NCBI GenBank assembly: GCA_963842085.1 | Contig: CAWJET010000001.1 | Coordinates: 1,472,001-1,536,000, forward strand | Direction of reading: 5' to 3' | DNA length: 64,000 bases | From: an uncultured delta proteobacterium | GTDB taxonomy: Bacteria; Desulfobacterota; Binatia; Binatales; Binataceae | Shown: positions 5,825 to 63,151 of the stretch, piece after piece | How the letters are laid out: the number at the start of each line of letters is the position of its first letter | Numbering within the stretch: position 1 is the stretch's first letter | The notes under the pieces: model-generated | Seen by the model: only the letters and a program-made list of their open reading frames with translations | Told to the model about the DNA's origin: nothing | The model's database searches: none | Made by a program: the position numbers and the translations under genes

Positions 5825-6643
5825 ATGAAGCTGAGTGGAAAAGTGGCGCTGGTCACCGGGACCAGCCCGAATATCGGCGGCGGCATCGCGGAGGGTCTCG
5901 CGGCCGAGGGTGCCGCACTCGTATGCGTCGACGCACGAGCCGAAAACGCCGCAGACTGCGCGCGCTACATCAAGAGCACGGGCGGCCGCGCCACGGCGGT
6001 GACTTGCGACGTCACCGACGAGCGCCAGGTGATCGCGGCGGTCGCGGCGGCGCGCGAGACGTTCGGTGGCGTCGACATCCTGGTGAACAACGCTGCCATC
6101 TTCAACAAGAAGGGCGTGATCGACATGCCGCTCGACGAATGGCGCCGACAGCTCGAGATCATTCTTGGCGGCGCGTTCCTGTTCACCAAGCATGTTGCGA
6201 GGTCAATGATCGAACAGCGCCGAAAAGGGAGCATCATAAATATCATCTCGACCGCGGGACATCAGGGCGAGCCGAACAACATCGCGTACTGCACCGGCAA
6301 GAGCGGTCTGCTGAACTTCACGCGCTCGGCCGCGATGGAACTGGCCGCGCACGGCATCCGGGTCAACAGCCTGACGCCGACAGCGACCGATCCGTCAGAG
6401 TCGCTCGAGCGCGCCGCGCGATGGGGCCGCCAGGTCCGCAGTGGAGATCAACTCAGGCAGGCGTTCGAGCCGTTTCGCAAAGGCGTGCCGATGCTCGAGC
6501 TGCCGAGTCCGAGCGACTACGGACGGGCTGCGGTATTTCTTGCGTCGGACGACGCCGGGATGATCACTGGGACTGATCTTCGCGTCGACGCCGGCGCGAT
6601 CGCGCGTTATTGGGCGTGGAATCCGTCGGACAAGCAGAGCTGA
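5825..6643 (+). CDS. SDR oxidoreductase (possible dihydrodiol dehydrogenase)
   Basis: TGxxxxIG, NNAA and YxxxK (YCTGK) motifs. Confidence 0.9.
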   Translation: MKLSGKVALVTGTSPNIGGGIAEGLAAEGAALVCVDARAENAADCARYIKSTGGRATAVTCDVTDERQVIAAVAAARETFGGVDILVNNAAIFNKKGVIDMPLDEWRRQLEIILGGAFLFTKHVARSMIEQRRKGSIINIISTAGHQGEPNNIAYCTGKSGLLNFTRSAAMELAAHGIRVNSLTPTATDPSESLERAARWGRQVRSGDQLRQAFEPFRKGVPMLELPSPSDYGRAAVFLASDDAGMITGTDLRVDAGAIARYWAWNPSDKQS

Positions 6644-13580: not shown

Positions 13581-13640
13581 GTACTTGATTCTATTGGTGG
13601 AGCTGAGCGGGATCGAACCGCCGACCTCCTGAATGCCATT
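13581..13640 (-). repeat. att site: duplicate of the 3' half of tRNA-Ala(GGC)
   Basis: 13592-13640 is identical to 25576-25624; similarity extends further with 2 mismatches. Confidence 0.92.
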
Positions 13641-13783
13641 TGTGCCGTCTCGAGAAACGAGCGATACAATTCCGTACCATCCGATGGCGCACGAAATCAA
13701 CAAAACCCTTGCGGCACAAGGACTCCCGACACTCGCCTCGACGCCACCGAACGCTAACAAGTGATCAGTACTGATCTCCGATC

Positions 13784-13819
13784 AGGGCACAAATCTGGGC
13801 ACAGTAGGGCACAAATTTG
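13784..13819 (+). repeat. GGGCACA direct repeats (arm-type-like integrase sites), interrupted by IS1595
   Basis: GGGCACA at 13785, 13797 and 13807, and again at 15848 after the IS. Confidence 0.6.
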
Positions 13820-13868
13820 GGGATTGATATACTTGACACACAAGCGTTGTGCGTGTAGTATCTAGCTT

Positions 13869-14789
13869 ATGAAGACGCCACGGACACTGATTGAAGCGAT
13901 TCGATACTTTGCAGACCCAGAAATCTGTCGTAACTATTTGGCCGAATGCCGTTGGCCGACCGGCGTAAGATGCCCGCGAAGGGGTTGCGGATCGAGAGAC
14001 GTATGGTTCATCCAAACGCGGGCGATCTGGCGCTGCAAATCCAAATCATGCAGCAAACAGTTTTCGGTGAAGGTCGGTAGCATCTTCGAAGATTCGCCGA
14101 TTACGCTCGATAAGTGGCTCCCCGCCGTCTGGCTGCTCACTTGCTCGACAAAGGGCTATAGCTCCCACCGGCTGGCAAAGGCCCTAGGCGTCACACAAAA
14201 GACCGCATGGTTCATGCTCCATCGAATCCGGCTCGCGTTGAGGGCGGGCAGCTTCGAGACGCCTATGTCTGGGCCGGTTGAAGGCGATACTACAGGCATC
14301 GGCGGACTGGAGAAGAACAAACATCGCAGCAAACGCTTGCATCGTGGAACGGGCAACGTTGGCAAAGCCGTGGTCTTCGGATTGCTCGCAAGGCACGGGC
14401 AGATCCGTGCTAAATCCGTACCTAACGAACGGGCGGAAACGCTCCAACGTGTGATTCGTCGTAACGTCGAATCAGGCGCGATCCTCTATACCGATGAGGC
14501 AGCGGCCTTTCGCGGACTAGACGCAGACTACGCGCACGAAGTCATTAACCATTCTGAGGAGTATGTGCGTGGCGCGGTCCATACGAACGGGATCGAGAGT
14601 TTCTGGGCAAACTTCAAGCGCACGGTTTATGGGACGCATCATTTCGTGATGCCGTGGCAGCTTGATCGCTACCTTGACGACGCGACGTTTCGATTCAACC
14701 AACGGAAAATCGGGGATGGGGATCGCTTTGCGTTGGCGCTCGCTCAAGCCGATGGCAGAAGACTTACTTACAAGGAATTGACCCAATGA
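13869..14789 (+). CDS. IS1595 family transposase
   Basis: N-terminal Zn ribbon, GVTQKTAWFMLHRIR HTH, TDE, HTNGIESFW and GRRLTY motifs. Confidence 0.95.
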   Translation: MKTPRTLIEAIRYFADPEICRNYLAECRWPTGVRCPRRGCGSRDVWFIQTRAIWRCKSKSCSKQFSVKVGSIFEDSPITLDKWLPAVWLLTCSTKGYSSHRLAKALGVTQKTAWFMLHRIRLALRAGSFETPMSGPVEGDTTGIGGLEKNKHRSKRLHRGTGNVGKAVVFGLLARHGQIRAKSVPNERAETLQRVIRRNVESGAILYTDEAAAFRGLDADYAHEVINHSEEYVRGAVHTNGIESFWANFKRTVYGTHHFVMPWQLDRYLDDATFRFNQRKIGDGDRFALALAQADGRRLTYKELTQ

Positions 14790-15739
14790 AGAACTACTTT
14801 TCTGAATTGCGCCGCTGGTTACGAAATTCCGTTTTGGGCAAGACAAAGACAATAGAATTGCCCGGAGCCGAAGTCGATGAACTTCTCGCGAAATATTCGG
14901 CGGAAGACGTAACAACGGAACTGTTCGATTTCGGACAGATGTTGCTTACGGCGAACGAGGAGCGTGTCGGGCTCATAGATTCTAAGGCCACGACACTTGT
15001 TGGATATAGTAGTGCGATACTGGCGCTTCTGTTAATGCGCGGTGCTACTTGGACGCATTCGTGGCTTGAGCTGATCGCAATCGTGATCGTGGCTTTGGCC
15101 GCAGGAAGTGCGTGTCTCTTTTCTCTAATGGCACTTCACGGTGCACAGAATTGGAGCCAACTAAGTGAGGGAACATGGTTCCCGCGCGATCGAGTATTAC
15201 AAGGCTCCGATTCACTCAAGCGATTCTACATAAGCGCCATGCACCAAGTTCTACAGGACAATCATCGGATCGCAAATCACAAGGCTGATCAAATGATCAT
15301 GGCTCAGATCCTAGTCGCGCTCGCGGGCGTGCTCTTGGCAATTACTTTGGCGGCTGCCGTCGCAATGACGCTTGTTCGGTCGATCACTTCCCGCCCTTCT
15401 GAATTATATTCAACGAGCGCCGCGCCTCTGACTGATTGTTGTGCTGTGACGTGTTCAGCGTATCGCGCGGACTCACCTCCTCTTGCACAGTATTCAGTGT
15501 CTGTCGAGGGTTGGTGGTGGTCGCAGGAGGCACTGGGACGGGAGGTGTTACCGGCGCGGGATTTTGTCCTTGTTGATTTCCCTGCGCTGCGCCACCCGTA
15601 TTGCCAGCATTCTGATTATCGTCTGTCATTGAAGGAATCTCCCTATGAAGAAAAAATCACTGCCACTGTCCAAGATGCGCACGGCACTCCGGCGCATCGT
15701 CTCCGTCCCCAAAGACGAAGTGAAACAACTTCTTGCTGA
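14786..15739 (+). CDS. IS passenger: 3-TM membrane protein, Pycsar-effector-like
   Basis: ATGA-coupled to the transposase; IDSKA-TM1-TM2-loop-IANHK-TM3 pattern; the C-terminal ~115 aa overlap other ORFs. Confidence 0.6.
   Translation: MKNYFSELRRWLRNSVLGKTKTIELPGAEVDELLAKYSAEDVTTELFDFGQMLLTANEERVGLIDSKATTLVGYSSAILALLLMRGATWTHSWLELIAIVIVALAAGSACLFSLMALHGAQNWSQLSEGTWFPRDRVLQGSDSLKRFYISAMHQVLQDNHRIANHKADQMIMAQILVALAGVLLAITLAAAVAMTLVRSITSRPSELYSTSAAPLTDCCAVTCSAYRADSPPLAQYSVSVEGWWWSQEALGREVLPARDFVLVDFPALRHPYCQHSDYRLSLKESPYEEKITATVQDAHGTPAHRLRPQRRSETTSC
15384..15629 (-). CDS. IS passenger: 81-aa N/Q/P-rich peptide with three repeats
   Basis: SD AGGGAG; three Rx[TS]LNxxQ repeats encoded with differing synonymous codons. 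Confidence 0.6.
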   Translation of the reverse strand: MTDDNQNAGNTGGAAQGNQQGQNPAPVTPPVPVPPATTTNPRQTLNTVQEEVSPRDTLNTSQHNNQSEARRSLNIIQKGGK

Positions 15740-15776
15740 CGAACGAGCGAAGCGCAAACCTCGCCAGAAAGCCTAG
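15645..15776 (+). CDS. IS passenger: 43-aa basic protein (not in the ORF track)
   Basis: SD GAAGGA; MKKKSLPLSKMRTALRRIVSVPKDEVKQLLADERAKRKPRQKA. Confidence 0.55.
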   Translation: MKKKSLPLSKMRTALRRIVSVPKDEVKQLLADERAKRKPRQKA

Positions 15777-15927
15777 GAATCCGCGTCATCGATGACCACC
15801 ATATCGGAGCTGGGCCTTGTGTGTCAACTATATCAATCCCCAAATTTGGGCACACTGACTTGATCGCCGGACCATCATGTTCAGGGCCAAATGATACTCG
15901 TTCCATCATGAGATCTCGCGTGAAGCT

Positions 15928-18324
15928 TCACGGCTTCACGCTCAATTCGTCGAGCAGCGCTTTGGCGTCTTTCAGGTCGGCGGTGTCGAAGCCTTCGGTG
16001 AATTGCCCGTAGATCCCGGCGAGCATCGCGCGCGCCTCGTCGTGCTTGCCTTGTTTCGCGAGCAGGCGCGCGAGGCTCATCGTCGCGCGCAGCTCGAATC
16101 CTTTCGAGCCCATGCGCCGGGCGACGGCAATCGCCTCCCGGAAATCTCCCGCCGCCTTGGTTTCGTCGCCGCGCTTCAGATGCAACTCGCCCCGCCACCA
16201 CAACAGGCTAGGCAAATAGATCTGCTGTTCTCCAACGACAGAGAAGGCTTGCTCGATAGTTGCGAGCGCCTCCTCCAGTTGACCCGCGCGCGCCTGCGCC
16301 TCACTCAAAGCTCGGAACAACTCTGGCAAACCCAACCTGATGCCGAGCGTCGCCACGGAATCGAGTCCGGCGCGAATCAGCGCGATGCCTTCGTCAGTCC
16401 GACCCTGCTCGGCCATCGCCCAACCGCGATAAACCGAACCGGAGGCCGCCCATTGTGGGAGTTGTTGTTCGCTCGCGAGAGTGGATAGGCGTTCCGCGAC
16501 TTCCCGCACGGTGCCGGGCTCGCGAAGCTTCATGTAAAAACCGCTTGCGGTTCCGAGCGAGACCGCCAGACTCCCGGGCCTCTTCAAGCGCTCGGACAAG
16601 GAAATGGACTCACGAATTTTCGCTCGCCCCTGATCGCTGTTCCCCAAATGCCACAACACCGAGGCCATACAACAGAGCGCGTCGACATGAGGATTCCAAA
16701 CGTCCCCGGACCAGTCGCTCTCGTTGTATGACGCGATCGTCGCCTCGAGATGTTGCATCGCCTGGGTCAGCTCTCCGCGATAATAGAAGGATAGCCCCTG
16801 AGTAGTGGCCATACTCAGGCCGTAGCGAATCCCGCTGCGCTGGGCAATCTCCATCAATTGTTCCGCGATCTGCAGCGCGGCAGTCATTTCGCCCTGGAAA
16901 TAGGCCGCGGCCCAAGCGGCCCGCAACGCGTTTATGACTTGCTCCGGGTTGCCAGTCTTTTCGCCCAGCTCCCGCAAGTGTCTGGCCGCCCGCACAGTCT
17001 CATCCGTGGCGAAGCCGCGCGTACCTGCGAGCACCTGCCAAAGCGCGAACTGGAGATTGAATTCGCGGTTTATCCGCTCGGGAGTCTCGGGAGTCGTGCT
17101 CAGCGCAGCGATCGCCTGCTTCAGACAAAGCTCGGCTTCCTTGAGTGCCCCGCACTTGATTGCCTGCCGGCCGGCGCGGTCGAGGTACTCGACCGTTTTT
17201 TCGGTGTTCGAGCTGCGCGCGTAGTGATGAGCCAGCTCGGCGCAGTAATCTTCCAACCCCGCGGAATAGGTTCGCTCGATTGCGTCGGCCACCTCGAGAT
17301 GGAGCCTCTGGCGCCGCGCCGCCGATAAACCGCCGATCACTGCCTGGCGAACAAGCTCGTGAGAGAACTGAAAGCGGGCCTTGGGACTCTCCGCGACTGA
17401 GAAAAGCAGCCCCGCCTTTTCGGCTTCCTCGATGCACTTCAGAATCGAATCCTCATTGGCTGCGCTCGCGCGCGCAAGAATTTCAAAACTGAACAAGCGT
17501 CCAATCACCGCCGCCGTGGCGAGCATCTTTTGTGTCAGGTCGGTCAGCCGCGCCAGTCGCCGTGCGACCACCAGCCGAACGCTCGGCGGCGCCTCCAGCT
17601 CGCCGATCTCGAGCTCCGAACGAAACCGGCCGGCCGAGTCGTATAGCCGATTTTCCTCTTCGAGATGGCGGAACAGTTCCTCGACGAAGAAAGGATTTCC
17701 GTCAGTCTCCGCGTATATCTCGCTTACCACCGCGTCCGGCGGCGATTTTCCACTCAGGCTCTTCAGCATCGCGGCCACTTCATCACGCGGCAGGCCCTTG
17801 AGCCTCACCTGAGTTGCAAGCCGTCCGCGGAGTAAATCTTCGAGCGTCTTCGCCAGCCCGCCGGTCACATTGAGCCCAGCGTCACGGTAGGTGCCGACCA
17901 GCAGCAAGGGCAGATCGGAAAGCCTCTGCGTCAGGTGATCGAGCAGCGACAACGTCGAATCGCCGCTCCAGTGAAGGTCCTCGAGAACAAGTAGCAGCGG
18001 CTGCTCGCGAGCCACGCGCACTATGAAGTCGCGGTAACAGTTGAATAGCTGGCGCCGCGCCTGAGCTGGCGGCAAATCGAGCGGTGGTGGAAGCCCCGGC
18101 AAGATGTTCTTAAGTCTGGGTAGTAAGCGCGCCAACTCCGGTGCCTGCTCTCCCAGTGCCGTGCGCAGAGCGTCGGGGGTTGATGCACGATCGATGAAGT
18201 TCTCCAGGATTTCCACGAACGGCAGATAGGCGACGGCTTCGTCGCGCTCGGAGCAATGCCCGACAAGCAGCGCCATTCCCTTTGCATCAGCCAGGAGCGC
18301 AAGGCCCGCGCGCAGCGTAGCCAC
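15928..18324 (-). pseudogene. 5'-truncated STAND-type AAA ATPase/TPR protein
   Basis: Walker B LLVLEDLHW, GNPFFVEE, FSHELVR and EGFDTADL tail present; Walker A and N-terminal domain missing. Confidence 0.8.
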
Positions 18325-24969: not shown

Positions 24970-25578
24970 GGGATCGGCGTCGCTAACAGTTTCTCGAACA
25001 TCAGACGCTTGCGGTCGGCCTGGACCTGATCTGTGTCGCGCAAATGGTCCGCCAATACCGCATTTGTAGACTGCCACGCTATGAGTCATCAGGTGCGAGC
25101 CGTCGAGTTTTTTCGAGGAAATGCACCTGGGGGGGAAACGGGACCGTGTTGCCCGCTGTGCGGTGGCGAGATTCAACGGGAATCCAGAATTGAGGCATCT
25201 GTAGAAATCCGGAACAGTCGATCAATCCTAACTAGGCTGTGCTGTAGGGACCCTCGGCAAGAATCGGTATCGCTCAGCTACCTCTGCCCAGGGCCTCGGT
25301 TGACATGGAGTGACGCGGAGCGATGCCAGCCAATACCGACGAAAAACGCCAATTCCGCTACTCTCATGCAAGAGGTCCCTGGTTCGGTGCGTTCGCCAAC
25401 ACAATTCCTCACGCATGGCATGAAAAGTCCTGTAGCGTTCAGCAGTCGAGCGCGTAACTGTTGAAAGCAGTGAACCCATGCTCCAGCCAAGTCCTTGCAG
25501 CTTCGTGCCGCCGCCTACATCACGCCTACATGAGTGTCGCTTTGGAACCATAGCGATGCGCTAAGTATTTGATTTTAT

Positions 25579-25655
25579 TGGTGGAGCTGAGCGGGATCGA
25601 ACCGCCGACCTCCTGAATGCCATTCAGGCGCTCTCCCAAACTGAGCTACAGCCCC
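25579..25655 (-). tRNA. tRNA-Ala(GGC)
   Basis: GGGGCTG...CAGCTCCACCA acceptor stem with encoded CCA; anticodon arm CCTGA-ATGGCAT-TCAGG; GTTCGA T-loop. Confidence 0.97.
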
Positions 25656-58119: not shown

Positions 58120-58303
58120 CAGCTTTGGAGTGAGCCTATCTCGTCGAACTTGGTAGGTCCCTTTGACATCCTTAGTGCCTCTTGAAACATTTACGCGATA
58201 CAGCTAGTTTAGTTGACCATCACGGGAACGCCAAATTAGGGGATTGATATAGTTGACACACAAGGCCCAGCTCCGATATGGTGGTCATCGATGACGCGGA
58301 TTC

Positions 58304-58435
58304 CTAGGCTTTCTGGCGAGGTTTGCGCTTCGCTCGTTCGTCAGCAAGAAGTTGTTTCACTTCGTCTTTGGGGACGGAGACGATGCGCCGGAGTGCCGTG
58401 CGCATCTTGGACAGTGGCAGTGATTTTTTCTTCAT
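58304..58435 (-). CDS. 43-aa basic IS passenger ORF (copy 2)
   Basis: Mirror image of 15645-15776. Confidence 0.55.
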   Translation of the reverse strand: MKKKSLPLSKMRTALRRIVSVPKDEVKQLLADERAKRKPRQKA

Positions 58436-59294
58436 AGGGAGATTCCTTCAATGACAGACGATAATCAGAATGCTGGCAATACGGGTGGCGCAGCGCAGGG
58501 AAATCAACAAGGACAAAATCCCGCGCCGGTAACACCTCCCGTCCCAGTGCCTCCTGCGACCACCACCAACCCTCGACAGACACTGAATACTGTGCAAGAG
58601 GAGGTGAGTCCGCGCGATACGCTGAACACGTCACAGCACAACAATCAGTCAGAGGCGCGGCGCTCGTTGAATATAATTCAGAAGGGCGGGAAGTGATCGA
58701 CCGAACAAGCGTCATTGCGACGGCAGCCGCCAAAGTAATTGCCAAGAGCACGCCCGCGAGCGCGACTAGGATCTGAGCCATGATCATTTGATCAGCCTTG
58801 TGATTTGCGATCCGATGATTGTCCTGTAGAACTTGGTGCATGGCGCTTATGTAGAATCGCTTGAGTGAATCGGAGCCTTGTAATACTCGATCGCGCGGGA
58901 ACCATGTTCCCTCACTTAGTTGGCTCCAATTCTGTGCACCGTGAAGTGCCATTAGAGAAAAGAGACACGCACTTCCTGCGGCCAAAGCCACGATCACGAT
59001 TGCGATCAGCTCAAGCCACGAATGCGTCCAAGTAGCACCGCGCATTAACAGAAGCGCCAGTATCGCACTACTATATCCAACAAGTGTCGTGGCCTTAGAA
59101 TCTATGAGCCCGACACGCTCCTCGTTCGCCGTAAGCAACATCTGTCCGAAATCGAACAGTTCCGTTGTTACGTCTTCCGCCGAATATTTCGCGAGAAGTT
59201 CATCGACTTCGGCTCCGGGCAATTCTATTGTCTTTGTCTTGCCCAAAACGGAATTTCGTAACCAGCGGCGCAATTCAGAAAAGTAGTTCTTCAT
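58341..59294 (-). CDS. Pycsar-effector-like membrane passenger (copy 2)
   Basis: Identical translation to 14786-15739. Confidence 0.6.
   Translation of the reverse strand: MKNYFSELRRWLRNSVLGKTKTIELPGAEVDELLAKYSAEDVTTELFDFGQMLLTANEERVGLIDSKATTLVGYSSAILALLLMRGATWTHSWLELIAIVIVALAAGSACLFSLMALHGAQNWSQLSEGTWFPRDRVLQGSDSLKRFYISAMHQVLQDNHRIANHKADQMIMAQILVALAGVLLAITLAAAVAMTLVRSITSRPSELYSTSAAPLTDCCAVTCSAYRADSPPLAQYSVSVEGWWWSQEALGREVLPARDFVLVDFPALRHPYCQHSDYRLSLKESPYEEKITATVQDAHGTPAHRLRPQRRSETTSC
58451..58696 (+). CDS. 81-aa repeat peptide (copy 2)
   Basis: Identical translation to 15384-15629. Confidence 0.6.
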   Translation: MTDDNQNAGNTGGAAQGNQQGQNPAPVTPPVPVPPATTTNPRQTLNTVQEEVSPRDTLNTSQHNNQSEARRSLNIIQKGGK

Positions 59295-60211
59295 TGGGTC
59301 AATTCCTTGTAAGTAAGTCTTCTGCCATCGGCTTGAGCGAGCGCCAACGCAAAGCGATCCCCATCCCCGATTTTCCGTTGGTTGAATCGAAACGTCGCGT
59401 CGTCAAGGTAGCGATCAAGCTGCCACGGCATCACGAAATGATGCGTCCCATAAACCGTGCGCTTGAAGTTTGCCCAGAAACTCTCGATCCCGTTCGTATG
59501 GACCGCGCCACGCACATACTCCTCAGAATGGTTAATGACTTCGTGCGCGTAGTCTGCGTCTAGTCCGCGAAAGGCCGCTGCCTCATCGGTATAGAGGATC
59601 GCGCCTGATTCGACGTTACGACGAATCACACGTTGGAGCGTTTCCGCCCGTTCGTTAGGTACGGATTTAGCACGGATCTGCCCGTGCCTTGCGAGCAATC
59701 CGAAGACCACGGCTTTGCCAACGTTGCCCGTTCCACGATGCAAGCGTTTGCTGCGATGTTTGTTCTTCTCCAGTCCGCCGATGCCTGTAGTATCGCCTTC
59801 AACCGGCCCAGACATAGGCGTCTCGAAGCTGCCCGCCCTCAACGCGAGCCGGATTCGATGGAGCATGAACCATGCGGTCTTTTGTGTGACGCCTAGGGCC
59901 TTTGCCAGCCGGTGGGAGCTATAGCCCTTTGTCGAGCAAGTGAGCAGCCAGACGGCGGGGAGCCACTTATCGAGCGTAATCGGCGAATCTTCGAAGATGC
60001 TACCGACCTTCACCGAAAACTGTTTGCTGCATGATTTGGATTTGCAGCGCCAGATCGCCCGCGTTTGGATGAACCATACGTCTCTCGATCCGCAACCCCT
60101 TCGCGGGCATCTTACGCCGGTCGGCCAACGGCATTCGGCCAAATAGTTACGACAGATTTCTGGGTCTGCAAAGTATCGAATCGCTTCAATCAGTGTCCGT
60201 GGCGTCTTCAT
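59291..60211 (-). CDS. IS1595 family transposase (copy 2)
   Basis: Identical translation to 13869-14789. Confidence 0.95.
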   Translation of the reverse strand: MKTPRTLIEAIRYFADPEICRNYLAECRWPTGVRCPRRGCGSRDVWFIQTRAIWRCKSKSCSKQFSVKVGSIFEDSPITLDKWLPAVWLLTCSTKGYSSHRLAKALGVTQKTAWFMLHRIRLALRAGSFETPMSGPVEGDTTGIGGLEKNKHRSKRLHRGTGNVGKAVVFGLLARHGQIRAKSVPNERAETLQRVIRRNVESGAILYTDEAAAFRGLDADYAHEVINHSEEYVRGAVHTNGIESFWANFKRTVYGTHHFVMPWQLDRYLDDATFRFNQRKIGDGDRFALALAQADGRRLTYKELTQ

Positions 60212-60281
60212 AAGCTAGATACTACACGCACAACGCTTGTGTGTCAAGTATATCAATCCCCAAATTAGGGGGGTGTTTCGG

Positions 60282-60704
60282 ATGACGGTCGAAGACGCAC
60301 TGCGAAAGATCGCACTGTTGCGCAGGATCAGCACCGATAAAGGAGCCTTGGCGGCAGAGAGAGCGACTGCGCACCGCTTACAGAAGGTACTCATCGAGCG
60401 CTACGCGATCAGGGCACAGGATATCCCCGACGCCCCACCGACGACGGTCTTTCGCTTAAGCTGGAGTTACTGGCAGGAACTGTTTGAAGAGTTCGACCTG
60501 CGCTTGAACCATTTTGGGAGTCGCGGCAGCGCCAACGTCGGGAACAACAGTATCGCCTACATCATGCTTGCTACCAACCAGTGGTGGATCGAAGAAAGGT
60601 CCCCGGGCGGCTGGCAAACCACGACTCGCGGCGGGGGTGTCGAATCGCTGCGCAAGTACCTTAAAGACCACGCGCCAAGAAGCTACTCCTTTCTCAAGCG
60701 CTGA
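60282..60704 (+). CDS. Hypothetical protein with a DUF2786-like N-terminus
   Basis: LRKI.LL......AAE...A......LIERY pattern; G-rich SD. Confidence 0.6.
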   Translation: MTVEDALRKIALLRRISTDKGALAAERATAHRLQKVLIERYAIRAQDIPDAPPTTVFRLSWSYWQELFEEFDLRLNHFGSRGSANVGNNSIAYIMLATNQWWIEERSPGGWQTTTRGGGVESLRKYLKDHAPRSYSFLKR

Positions 60705-60944: not shown

Positions 60945-62030
60945 ATGAAAGCCGCCGTTTTCCACGGGCCCAAGTTGCCCCTCAGTATCGAGGACGTCGA
61001 ACTCGACAAGCCGCAGGACCGCGAAGTCCTGATCAAAACCGTCGCCAGCGGCGTATGCCACAGCGACCTGCATTTCGTCGACGGATTCTACCCGTACCCT
61101 GCGCCCGCGGTGCTCGGCCACGAAGCCGCCGGCATCATCGAGGAAGTCGGCAAGCAGGTAACCTACGTGAAGCCGGGCGACCACGTGATCTGTTGCCTGT
61201 CGGTCTTTTGCGGCAACTGCGAGCAGTGCATGTCAGGGCATCCCAATCGATGCTCGAACAAGGCCGCCACCCAGCGCAACCCGCAGGACAAGCCGCGCAT
61301 CTCGCAGAAGGGCAAGCCCGTCTTCCAGTTCCTCGACATCTCGTCTTACTGCGAGAAGATGCTGCTGCATGAAAACGCGGTGGTGAAGATTCGCGAGGAC
61401 CTGCCGCTCGATCGCGCCGCGCTCATAGGATGCGGCGTCACCACCGGCGTCGGCGCGGTGCTCAATACCGCCAGGATCGAGCCCGGCTCGACGGTCGCGG
61501 TCTTCGGTGCGGGCGGCGTCGGACTCGCCGCAATCCAGGGCGCACGGATCGCGGGCGCGCGCAAAATAATCGCAGTCGATATGTTCGAGGGCAAGCTCGC
61601 GATGGCCAAGCGGCTCGGCGCGACCGACACCGTTGACGCGTCGAACAGCGACCCCGTCGATGAAATCCGCAAACTCACCGGCGGCGGCGTCGATTATTCA
61701 TTCGAAGCGATCGGCCTCAAGAAGGTCGCCGAGCAGGCGTTCAACTCGCTCAAGTCCGGCGGCACCGCGACCGTGATCGGCATGATCCCCATCGGCCAGA
61801 AGGTCGAAATCGACGGCTACATGTTCCTGACCGAGCGCAAACTGCAAGGTTCCAACATGGGCTCCAACCGCTTCCGCATCGACATGCCCCGTTACATCGA
61901 CTTCTACATGCAGGGCCGCCTCAACCTCGACGACATGATCAGCCAGCGCCGAAAACTCGAGGACGTCAACGACGCGTTCCGCGCTATGAAAGCCGGCGAA
62001 GTCGCACGCACTGTGTTGATGTTCAACTAG
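60945..62030 (+). CDS. Zn-dependent alcohol dehydrogenase
   Basis: CHSD, GHE, CxxCxxC..C and GAGGVG motifs. Confidence 0.95.
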   Translation: MKAAVFHGPKLPLSIEDVELDKPQDREVLIKTVASGVCHSDLHFVDGFYPYPAPAVLGHEAAGIIEEVGKQVTYVKPGDHVICCLSVFCGNCEQCMSGHPNRCSNKAATQRNPQDKPRISQKGKPVFQFLDISSYCEKMLLHENAVVKIREDLPLDRAALIGCGVTTGVGAVLNTARIEPGSTVAVFGAGGVGLAAIQGARIAGARKIIAVDMFEGKLAMAKRLGATDTVDASNSDPVDEIRKLTGGGVDYSFEAIGLKKVAEQAFNSLKSGGTATVIGMIPIGQKVEIDGYMFLTERKLQGSNMGSNRFRIDMPRYIDFYMQGRLNLDDMISQRRKLEDVNDAFRAMKAGEVARTVLMFN

Positions 62031-62065: not shown

Positions 62066-63151
62066 ATGAAAGCTGCTGTCTTTCACGGCCCCGGTCAGCC
62101 ACTCACCATCGAGCAGGTCGATATCGACGAACCCAGGGAGCGCGAAGTCGTCGTGCGCACGGTCGCCAGCGGCGTATGCCACAGCGATCTTCATTTCGTC
62201 GACGGCCTCTACATGTGGCCGACCCCCGCGATCCTCGGCCACGAGGCCGCCGGCGTCGTCGAGAAAGTCGGCTCGCAGGTCTCCTACCTCGAGCCCGGCA
62301 ATCACGTTATCGCGTGCCTCTCGGTCTTTTGCGGCTACTGCGAGGAGTGCATGTCCGGCCATCCCAACCTCTGCTCGAACAAGGCCGCCACGCAGCGCGG
62401 CGCCGGCGACAAGCCGCGCCTGTCGCAGAAGGGCAAGATGGTCAATCAGTTCGCCGACTTGTCGGGCTACGCCGAAAAAATGCTGCTGCATGAAAATGCG
62501 CTGGTGAAAATTTCCAACGACGTGCCGCTCGATCGCGCCGCGCTCATCGGATGCGGCGTCATGACCGGCGTCGGCGCCGCGCTTAACACCGCGAAGGTTG
62601 CGCCCGGCTCGACCGTCGCCGTGTTCGGCGCCGGCGGCGTCGGCCTCGCGATAATCCAGGGCGCGCGAATCGCGGGCGCGCGCATGATCGTCGCGGTCGA
62701 CAAGTTTCCATCCAAGCTCGAGCTCGCCAAAAAACTCGGCGCCACTCACGCCGTCGACGCGTCCAAGGGCGACGCGGTCGATCAGATTCGCTCCCTCACC
62801 GGCGGCGGCGTTGATTACTCGTTCGAAGCCATCGGGCTCAAGGTCGCAGCCGAGCAGGCTTACGAGTCAATCGTCGCCGGCGGCGTCGCCACGATCGTCG
62901 GGATGGTTCCGCTCGGGCAAAAGGTCGAAGTGGACGGCTTCTCGCTCCTGTTCGAGAAGCGCATCCAGGGATGCTTCATGGGCTCGAACCGCTTCCGCAT
63001 CGACATGCCGCGCATCATCGAGCTCTATCAGCAGGGACGGCTCGACCTTGACGACATGATCACGCGCCGCGGCAAACTCGAGGACGTCAACGAGGCCTTC
63101 CGCGCGATGAAGGCCGGCGAAGTCGCGCGCACAGTCCTGATGTTCGACTAG
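62066..63151 (+). CDS. Zn-dependent alcohol dehydrogenase (tandem paralog)
   Basis: Same motifs and same 361-aa length as the upstream gene. Confidence 0.95.
   Translation: MKAAVFHGPGQPLTIEQVDIDEPREREVVVRTVASGVCHSDLHFVDGLYMWPTPAILGHEAAGVVEKVGSQVSYLEPGNHVIACLSVFCGYCEECMSGHPNLCSNKAATQRGAGDKPRLSQKGKMVNQFADLSGYAEKMLLHENALVKISNDVPLDRAALIGCGVMTGVGAALNTAKVAPGSTVAVFGAGGVGLAIIQGARIAGARMIVAVDKFPSKLELAKKLGATHAVDASKGDAVDQIRSLTGGGVDYSFEAIGLKVAAEQAYESIVAGGVATIVGMVPLGQKVEVDGFSLLFEKRIQGCFMGSNRFRIDMPRIIELYQQGRLDLDDMITRRGKLEDVNEAFRAMKAGEVARTVLMFD

What the first reader, a model, noticed from the sequence alone, without database searches (positions are those of the whole stretch)
13820..15840. Recently active IS1595 carrying a Pycsar-effector-like membrane protein without a cyclase
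Seen: two 2021-bp copies with intact TIRs, separate TSDs and identical ORF translations. The passenger is translationally coupled to the transposase and has a DSKA-TM-TM-loop-IAxxK-TM layout. Known: PycTM (DUF5706-type) effectors have a similar layout and cause cell death in Pycsar defence, and IS1595 members can carry passengers. Inference: a compact mobile defence or addiction module in which small co-carried peptides might replace cyclic-nucleotide signalling.
Basis: partly seen in the sequence, partly recalled or inferred. Interest (0 to 1): 0.8.

Follow-up and report, generated by a model that had tools for sequence, protein, structure and literature searches.

The report
Insertion sequence carrying PycTM-like membrane gene
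A small, recently active jumping gene of the IS1595 family carries, besides its transposase, a membrane protein distantly related to a phage-defence pore-former plus two tiny conserved genes, and swaps this cargo between copies, which suggests a very compact mobile conflict module of untested function.

Summary
A 2021-bp IS1595-family element (window 13820-15840) occurs in three 100% identical copies in this genome, not two. Each copy has about 25-bp terminal inverted repeats and its own 8-bp target duplication.

It carries four genes under purifying selection. These are the transposase, an overlapping gene for a three-helix membrane protein, a convergent 81-aa disordered protein, and a 43-aa basic protein. 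The last ~105 residues of the 317-aa passenger ORF are an unselected read-through lying over the 81-aa gene.

The passenger fails Pfam's PycTM model. It is nevertheless a remote homologue of PycTM: hhalign 92% probability, E 5.6e-7, with controls far lower, and PADLOC and ESM Atlas point the same way. It belongs to a separate family of about 387 cluster representatives.

No cyclase is in or beside the element. The same four-gene element occurs in other soil MAGs. Their transposases are 90-95% identical, but the cargo comes from two distant clades, so the cassette has been exchanged.

The function is inferred, not shown. The likeliest reading is a self-contained toxin/regulator or abortive-infection cassette.

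The parts
13820..15840 (+). IS copy 1, 2021 bp, IS1595 family with three cargo genes
   Evidence: 100% identical to two other places in the genome
13812..13819 (.). left target-site duplication CAAATTTG of copy 1
   Evidence: same 8-mer at 15841-15848
15841..15848 (.). right target-site duplication CAAATTTG of copy 1
13820..13844 (+). left terminal inverted repeat; holds a TTGACA that starts a promoter-like site at 13833-13861 facing inward
   Evidence: the promoter is a consensus match only
15816..15840 (-). right terminal inverted repeat; holds a TTGACA that starts a promoter-like site at 15827-15798 on the minus strand, facing the 81-aa gene
   Evidence: the promoter is a consensus match only
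13869..14789 (+). transposase, 306 aa
   Evidence: Pfam DDE_Tnp_IS1595 1.5e-38 and Zn_ribbon_IS1595 2.5e-9; NCBIfam transpos_IS1595 1.4e-53; dN/dS 0.03-0.05
14786..15421 (+). conserved part (about 212 aa) of the passenger: a three-helix membrane protein, remote PycTM homologue; its start overlaps the transposase stop (ATGA)
   Evidence: dN/dS 0.12-0.13
15422..15739 (+). unselected read-through tail of the 317-aa passenger ORF
   Evidence: tails differ or are absent in homologues; substitutions fall on the wobble position of the opposite-strand gene
15384..15629 (-). 81-aa gene convergent with the passenger: low-complexity Q/N/G/P-rich protein with conserved ends
   Evidence: present in 8 related loci; substitutions 13-15 at its third codon position against 1-3 at the passenger frame's third position; dN/dS 0.06-0.23
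15645..15776 (+). 43-aa basic gene next to the right end
   Evidence: conserved in all complete relatives; substitutions by codon position e.g. 5/2/14; dN/dS 0.11-0.29
58240..60260 (-). IS copy 2, identical, with its own duplication CTAATTTG (58232-58239 / 60261-60268)

Best explanation
This is an active transporter insertion sequence of the IS1595 family.

SHOWN
- There are three identical copies with separate 8-bp duplications.
- Four genes are under purifying selection.
- The first cargo gene overlaps the transposase stop and encodes a membrane protein of about 210 aa. Its core is remotely homologous to PycTM, the three-transmembrane effector of Pycsar/Pucsar phage defence.
- No cyclase is carried.
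- The cargo behaves as an exchangeable cassette on a conserved transposase backbone.

INFERRED
- The membrane protein oligomerises into a membrane-permeabilising assembly, like its relatives.
- It is held in check by the co-carried 81-aa disordered protein, which travels with it even where there is no transposase.
- The 43-aa basic protein travels with the IS backbone and may be a small regulator at the right end.
- The cassette would then work as a self-contained conflict module (post-segregational or abortive-infection killing) that favours retention or spread of the element.
- The trigger is unknown.
For: ELEMENT. Anatomy and activity rest.

GENES ARE REAL. dN/dS is 0.03-0.29 for all four genes. 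Codon-position bias of substitutions supports both small genes.

HOMOLOGY TO PycTM
- hhalign of the 126-row family alignment against 10 PF18967 proteins gives probability 92.3%, E 5.6e-7, 134 columns, score 48.6.
- Two reversed controls scored 18.0 and 18.8. None of 20 column shuffles scored above 17.2.
- PADLOC PycTM models hit 12 of 12 and 11 of 12 close homologues at E<=10, best 6.5e-5.
- 5 of 12 close homologues carry a precomputed PF18967.6 hit.
- ESM Atlas neighbours of homologue P0010 are PycTM clusters, score 0.95.
- Both families keep a lysine before the first and before the third hydrophobic helix.

STRUCTURE. The AlphaFold model has pLDDT 93.4, with long helices 40-86, 93-122 and 141-201.

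WHAT THE RELATIVES DO. PycTM is described as a pJV1-spdB3-family 3TM effector, and EcPucTM as a hexamer with a central channel (preprint 10.64898/2026.08.12.744502, passages).

SYNTENY. The order transposase, passenger, 81-aa gene, 43-aa gene holds in 7 distinct element variants.

CASSETTE EXCHANGE. Transposase nucleotide identity is 73-94% throughout. Cargo identity falls to 24-65% at the transposase/passenger junction in L007 and L019. The cargo of L019 sits in a different starred clade from the others.

PASSENGER AND 81-AA GENE TRAVEL TOGETHER. In a contig with terminase-like genes they occur together without transposase or the 43-aa gene.
Against: - No toxicity, defence or binding data exist.
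- The passenger does not reach any curated PycTM threshold. Pfam PF18967 gives no hit for it or for 126 of 126 family members at E<=0.01, and the whole-genome search finds none.
- Characterised PycTM effectors need a cyclase, and none is here.
- Tight coupling to a transposase, which is normally made in very small amounts, is an odd way to express a toxin and could equally point to a role in transposition.
- The small proteins match no antitoxin or regulator family.
- Fold searches gave only generic helical bundles.
Confidence: 0.42

Rival explanations
1. Orphan cyclic-nucleotide-gated effector. The passenger is still opened by a cyclic mononucleotide, made in trans by a chromosomal cyclase of whichever host the IS lands in.
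For: Homology to PycTM, with the two interface lysines conserved. The genome has 14 class III cyclase domains. In a same-genus genome, a protein that does pass PF18967 lies about 300 bp from the 3' end of an ORF with a cyclase domain.
Against: No cyclase domain lies in the element or near any of its three copies. The element occurs in MAGs labelled as different phyla, where a matching cyclase cannot be counted on. It carries two conserved genes of its own that this model does not need.
Confidence: 0.17
2. Transposition accessory genes. The membrane protein and small proteins regulate or assist transposition, for example a small repressor at the right end as in IS1, and have no role in conflict.
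For: The passenger start overlaps or abuts the transposase stop in every variant (ATGA, TAATG, GTGA). The 43-aa gene stays with the IS backbone and right end even where the passenger was exchanged. Promoter-like sites sit in both inverted repeats.
Against: The passenger and the 81-aa gene occur without any transposase beside terminase-like genes. Family members also occur in other contexts. An accessory factor specific to a 90%-conserved transposase would not be expected to tolerate replacement by an allele with 30% identity.
Confidence: 0.2
3. Holin-like or DNA-spread function. The protein serves lysis or cell-to-cell DNA movement, as the plasmid protein that gives the wider 3TM family its name is said to do.
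For: Two paralogues lie just upstream of terminase-like genes in L027. 5 of 12 homologues give weak Pfam hits to a holin family, best E 0.0076. The family name pJV1-spdB3 comes from the preprint.
Against: The holin hits are far below threshold and are typical of hydrophobic helices. No endolysin or transfer gene was seen nearby. An insertion sequence has no lytic cycle.
Confidence: 0.06
4. Hitch-hiking genes with no present function.
For: No function has been shown. The ORF tail is indeed unselected.
Against: dN/dS is 0.06-0.29 for all three cargo genes at dS about 0.6-1.5, with one pair at 2.9. Gene order is conserved in 7 variants.
Confidence: 0.05

Closest known systems
PycTM / PucTM, the three-transmembrane effectors of Pycsar and Pucsar phage defence (Pfam PF18967; called the pJV1-spdB3 family in preprint 10.64898/2026.08.12.744502)
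   Same: Size is about 180-210 aa. The layout is a D-x-K-A motif, two hydrophobic helices, a cytosolic loop of about 50 residues, I-[AC]-x-x-K, then a third hydrophobic helix. The profile-profile match covers 134 columns. The model has a helical cytosolic region, as described for EcPucTM.
   Different: It falls below the Pfam threshold and forms a separate clade on a long branch. It has no partner cyclase. It is translationally coupled to a transposase. It is accompanied by two small conserved genes. It has an extra N-terminal region of about 40 residues.
Transporter insertion sequences (tIS) of the IS1595 family (Siguier et al. 2009, seen only as a citation in PMC3129680 and PMC7986276; the ISNwi1-with-passenger subgroup is recalled, not checked)
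   Same: IS1595-type DDE transposase with an N-terminal zinc ribbon, short inverted repeats, 8-bp duplications, and passenger genes downstream of the transposase.
   Different: I found no description of a PycTM-like passenger, of this three-gene cargo, or of cargo exchange on one backbone. ISfinder itself could not be queried.
Toxin-antitoxin / abortive-infection modules with small membrane toxins
   Same: A compact pair made of a putative membrane-active protein and a small, disordered, fast-evolving partner, carried on mobile DNA, with allelic diversity.
   Different: No family match to any known toxin or antitoxin. The genes are convergent rather than in one operon. No functional data exist.

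Membership tests
IS1595 family insertion sequence | DDE transposase of the IS1595/ISXO2 type with an N-terminal zinc ribbon | tested here: met
   PF12762 1.5e-38, PF12760 2.5e-9; NF033547 1.4e-53
IS1595 family insertion sequence | terminal inverted repeats and 8-bp target duplications (the family value of 8 bp is recalled from ISfinder) | tested here: met
   About 25-nt repeats with one mismatch. Exact 8-bp duplications at 3 of 3 copies in this genome. Among 6 related variants, 4 have exact duplications, 1 has one mismatch, 1 has none.
IS1595 family insertion sequence | evidence of mobility | tested here: met
   Three 100% identical copies at unrelated sites. No empty-site allele was seen in the contigs laid.
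Pfam PF18967 (PycTM, formerly DUF5706) | score above the curated cut-off of 27.2 bits | tested here: not met
   No hit at E<=1. No match in the whole genome. 0 of 126 family members at E<=0.01. The positive control P0161 scores 43.2 bits.
PycTM-like 3TM superfamily (remote homology) | profile-level similarity over the three-helix core | tested here: met
   hhalign 92.3%, E 5.6e-7, score 48.6 against at most 18.8 in 22 controls. PADLOC PycTM hits 12 of 12 homologues. Atlas score 0.95 for homologue P0010.
PycTM-like 3TM superfamily (remote homology) | three membrane helices and hexameric channel | not testable with these tools
   Three long hydrophobic helices are read from the sequence and the model. 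No topology predictor was run. No solved PycTM or PucTM chain appeared among the fold-search matches.
Pycsar / Pucsar defence system | adjacent nucleotide cyclase (PycC/PucC) | tested here: not met
   The element has no further ORF with a family match. None of 14 PF00211 matches lies near any of the three copies.
Pycsar / Pucsar defence system | protection against phage | not testable with these tools
   experiment needed
SLATT / Cap15-type 2TM effectors | match to a family model | tested here: not met
   No SLATT family appears in the Pfam scans. In PADLOC only PycTM models hit, apart from one '2TM effector' hit in 1 of 12 homologues at E 0.044.
Toxin-antitoxin module | toxic protein neutralised by the adjacent gene product | not testable with these tools
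   experiment needed

The most novel reading that the evidence does not exclude
An insertion sequence has taken a PycTM-type pore-former out of its cyclic-nucleotide pathway and gated it with a tiny disordered protein. The result is a minimal, cyclase-free killing or immunity cassette of about 1 kb. It is expressed together with the transposase, and its alleles are shuffled among IS copies and phages across phyla.
Probability: 0.22. Interest if true: 0.8.

Novelty: new variant of a known kind. Interest (0 to 1): 0.6.

Why it matters
Defence and addiction genes are known on large transposons, plasmids and phages, but rarely inside a 2-kb insertion sequence and overlapping its transposase gene.

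If the cargo is a working effector, three things follow. First, it shows that PycTM-type membrane effectors can operate without their cyclase. Second, it gives a very small, portable test system for how such effectors are switched on. Third, it shows that simple ISs can spread conflict modules between distant soil bacteria.

It also defines a family of about 387 cluster representatives that current Pfam and PADLOC models miss. Genome annotation would otherwise leave these as hypothetical proteins.

Tried and rejected
- COMPLEX PREDICTION of the passenger with the 81-aa protein: no answer, score 0.01 against a mark of 0.32. This is no evidence either way.
- FOLD SEARCHES with the confident model. 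Foldseek against PDB and BFVD found nothing at E<=0.001. VIA wide search gave a best Z of 9.5, on BAR-like and other generic helical bundles, within the range the tool calls common for helical proteins. A first model from 7 sequences was poor, pLDDT 58.5.
- PLASMID COLLECTION, tblastn: no match.
- SMALL PROTEINS AND EXTRA ORFS. PHROGs, Pfam, NCBIfam and PADLOC gave nothing meaningful. An Atlas search with a homologue of the 43-aa protein found only unnamed clusters.
- RFAM: only tRNA-Ala in the window.
- SEQUENCING RUNS: no RNA holder listed. In contigs of four soil runs no joint skips the IS, so no empty-site allele was seen.
- PADLOC ACCESSION GUESSES. Looking for the Pycsar cyclase model returned PifA and a third PycTM model instead. 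Pfam PF00211 was used in its place.
- COMPOSITE TRANSPOSON made of the two inverted copies 42 kb apart: rejected, because each copy has its own duplication.
The Atlas could not read the window's own protein. The 126-row alignment was too diverse for the search for related loci.
- PAPER SUPPLEMENTS were not consulted. Those of the Pucsar preprint may list contexts of 3TM proteins that bear on novelty.
Full report
1. THE ELEMENT

The window holds two inverted, 100% complementary arms of 2036 nt, at 13814-15849 and 58231-60266. A search of the whole genome (4.93 Mb, 2 contigs) with bases 13820-15840 finds three places identical over all 2021 bases, plus one 182-nt fragment at 70% identity.

The ends are imperfect inverted repeats of about 25 nt with one mismatch. 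Each copy is flanked by its own 8-bp direct repeat: CAAATTTG, CTAATTTG and CTAATTAG. Separate duplications mean three independent insertions. They do not indicate movement of the 42-kb interval as a composite transposon.

The first ORF (13869-14789, 306 aa) matches Pfam DDE_Tnp_IS1595 (1.5e-38) and Zn_ribbon_IS1595 (2.5e-9), and NCBIfam transpos_IS1595 (1.4e-53).

2. WHICH ORFS ARE GENES

Close relatives of the passenger were found in three genome records, seven metagenome contigs and several same-genus genomes. Several of these loci give identical figures and are evidently the same sequence. I count 7 distinct element variants: the window, L005, L006, L007, L019, L024 and L026. All have the order transposase, passenger, a convergent small ORF, a 43-aa ORF, right inverted repeat.

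The 43-aa ORF. Substitutions against the window fall mainly on third codon positions, for example 5/2/14.

The overlap of the passenger ORF and the 81-aa ORF (15384-15500). Substitutions number 13-15 at the third codon position of the minus-strand 81-aa frame. They number only 1-3 at the third position of the passenger frame. In L007 the passenger stops at 205 aa, four bases before the stop of the antisense gene. Four of 12 database homologues end at 197-214 aa.

So the 81-aa gene is the selected reading. The last ~105 residues of the window's 317-aa ORF are an unselected read-through.

Nei-Gojobori estimates against the window give the following dN/dS, at dS about 0.6-1.5, with one pair at 2.9:
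- transposase: 0.03-0.05
- passenger: 0.12-0.13
- 81-aa gene: 0.06-0.23
- 43-aa gene: 0.11-0.29

All four are real genes.

3. WHAT THE PASSENGER IS

Direct HMM scans are nearly blank.
- Pfam gives nothing relevant.
- NCBIfam gives nothing relevant.
- PADLOC gives PycTM at E 0.02 over residues 63-114.
- The Pfam PycTM model PF18967 finds nothing in the whole genome.
- PF18967 hits 0 of 126 family members at E<=0.01. A true member, P0161, scores 43.2 bits in the same library.

Membership of the Pfam family is therefore tested and not met.

Several lines nevertheless point to remote homology.
- 5 of 12 close homologues carry a precomputed PF18967.6 hit.
- PADLOC PycTM models hit 12 of 12 and 11 of 12 of them at E<=10, best 6.5e-5.
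- A full HMMER search of 1.84 billion cluster representatives found 387 proteins at E<=0.001 and 212 at E<=1e-10. Most are 170-210 aa and match nearly end to end.
- A 126-row alignment of these, compared by hhalign with 10 PF18967 proteins, gives probability 92.3%, E 5.6e-7, score 48.6 over 134 columns.
- My controls with the reversed alignments scored 18.0 and 18.8. Twenty column shuffles scored at most 17.2.
- The ESM Atlas places homologue P0010 (49% identical to the window's protein) next to PycTM clusters at 0.95.

The alignment pairs the D-x-K-A motif before the first hydrophobic helix and the I-[AC]-x-x-K motif before the third. These two lysines are among the few nearly invariant positions in both families.

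On a FastTree tree the PF18967 proteins form one clade on a long branch, apart from the 138 family rows. The passenger thus belongs to a sister family of PycTM that current models miss.

4. STRUCTURE

With the deep alignment, AlphaFold gives pLDDT 93.4 and pTM 0.83. The model has helices 2-17, 27-36, 40-86, 93-122 and 141-201.

My reading of the sequence is three membrane helices, at about 68-88, 93-117 and 170-198. A cytosolic helical region is formed by residues 27-66 and 123-170. This is inference; no topology predictor was run.

Fold searches return only generic helical bundles.

A 2026 preprint describes PycTM and PucTM as pJV1-spdB3-family three-transmembrane effectors. It reports EcPucTM as a hexamer whose second membrane helices line a channel of about 15 Angstrom (passages read). 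That structure did not appear among the fold-search matches.

5. NO CYCLASE

The element has no other ORF with a family match. None of the genome's 14 class III cyclase domains lies near any copy.

By contrast, the one protein in a same-genus genome that does pass PF18967 lies about 300 bp from the end of a large ORF holding a cyclase domain.

6. CARGO EXCHANGE

Transposases of the variants are 90-95% identical in protein to the window's. Passengers range from 83% to 30% identity.

Along the element, nucleotide identity to L007 and L019 is 77-94% through the transposase. It falls to 24-65% from the transposase/passenger junction onward and returns to 95% at the last bases.

On the tree, the cargo of L019 groups with one of two tandem paralogues from L027 (support 100) inside a clade distant from the clade holding the other IS cargoes. 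L027 is a contig with terminase-like genes.

One backbone therefore carries cargo from at least two distant clades. The 81-aa partner changes with the passenger. In L019 it is a 41-aa proline-rich protein that keeps only the C-terminal motif. The 43-aa gene stays with the backbone. In L027, the passenger and a truncated 81-aa homologue occur without transposase or the 43-aa gene.

7. DISTRIBUTION

- The family was found in 3 of 401 genomes sampled from the phylum, one of them a weak partial hit.
- It was found in 7 of 47 genomes of the genus.
- Of those 7, 4 carry it in this element. One has it 150 bp from a convergent, 51%-identical IS1595 transposase gene. One has it within 1 kb of a divergent IS1595-type transposase gene. 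One has it after a large ORF that I read as ParB/methylase-like but did not test.
- Record titles of related loci name MAGs of Candidatus Acidiferrales, Candidatus Binatus and a 'Deltaproteobacteria' bin.

8. MECHANISM

Shown: an active IS; four selected genes; start/stop overlap of passenger and transposase in each variant; remote homology to a membrane effector; no cyclase; exchangeable cargo.

Inferred: the protein forms an oligomeric membrane-permeabilising assembly like its relatives. The disordered 81-aa protein that co-varies with it restrains it. The basic 43-aa protein is a regulator tied to the IS end.

Promoter-like sites using the TTGACA inside each inverted repeat face inward. The right one would make an mRNA for the 81-aa gene that is antisense to the 43-aa gene. 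These are consensus matches only.

I put 0.42 on the self-contained conflict-module reading, 0.20 on a transposition accessory role, and 0.17 on gating by a host cyclase in trans. The remainder goes to lesser options.

9. PRIOR DESCRIPTIONS

IS copies with passenger genes ('transporter IS') are a known kind, first defined on the IS1595 family. This was seen as statements and citations in PMC3129680 and PMC7986276. The original paper is not in the library.

Full-text searches found no description of a PycTM-like passenger in an IS. The searches were IS1595 with passenger gene, PycTM with transposase, IS1595 with ISNwi1, and ISPna2 with passenger. ISfinder and paper supplements could not be consulted.

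I rate the finding a new variant of a known kind, with interest 0.6.

Noticed in passing
window 13581-13662 and 25565-25646; tRNA-Ala 25579-25655: An 82-nt direct repeat (85% identity) duplicates the 3' half of tRNA-Ala(GGC). A stretch of about 12 kb therefore looks like an island integrated at this tRNA, and IS copy 1 sits about 160 bp inside its far end. By my reading, the island ORFs include a methylase-like ORF and two transposase-like ORFs. These were not tested with HMMs.
   Followed up: partly
window 13785-13816 and 15847-15854: The motif GGGCACA recurs four times at spacings of 10-12 nt around the insertion site of copy 1. These could be binding sites of the island's recombinase or iterons. 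Unexplained.
   Followed up: no
window 60945-62030 and 62066-63151: Two tandem 361-aa ORFs that look like zinc alcohol dehydrogenases. Their DNA repeat families are 76-82% identical.
   Followed up: no
window 15928-18324 (-): The 798-aa ATPase/TPR-like ORF beside copy 1 ends with the same C-terminal motif as the cyclase-bearing ORF next to a true PF18967 gene in same-genus genome G006. It has no cyclase domain itself. This is probably coincidence, since such genes are numerous.
   Followed up: partly
all element copies (window, L001, L006, L007, L019, L026): The seven exact 8-bp duplications fit a loose palindromic target, C-W-A-N-W-T-W-G.
   Followed up: partly
L006 about 5900-6370: A 2545-bp variant of the element has an extra ~0.5-kb insert between the 81-aa and 43-aa genes. 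It holds two further ORFs (62 and 94 aa) with no match in Pfam or PHROGs.
   Followed up: partly
L027 2579-3945: A contig with terminase-like genes carries two tandem paralogues of the passenger family, one from each of the two IS cargo clades, just upstream of the small terminase-like ORF.
   Followed up: partly
L030 3944-8122: In same-genus genome G032, a family member and a 181-aa ORF lie divergent from an IS1595-type transposase gene (Pfam 3e-37). That gene overlaps a 533-aa methyltransferase-like ORF. It may be a domesticated transposase in a defence-like cluster.
   Followed up: no
L005 4810-4812: The transposase of the Candidatus Acidiferrales copy has an in-frame stop, while its cargo genes are intact.
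   Followed up: no
window 60261-60290: Copy 2 is inserted about 20 nt upstream of the likely start of a ~140-aa ORF, so the left end of the IS now replaces that gene's promoter region.
   Followed up: no
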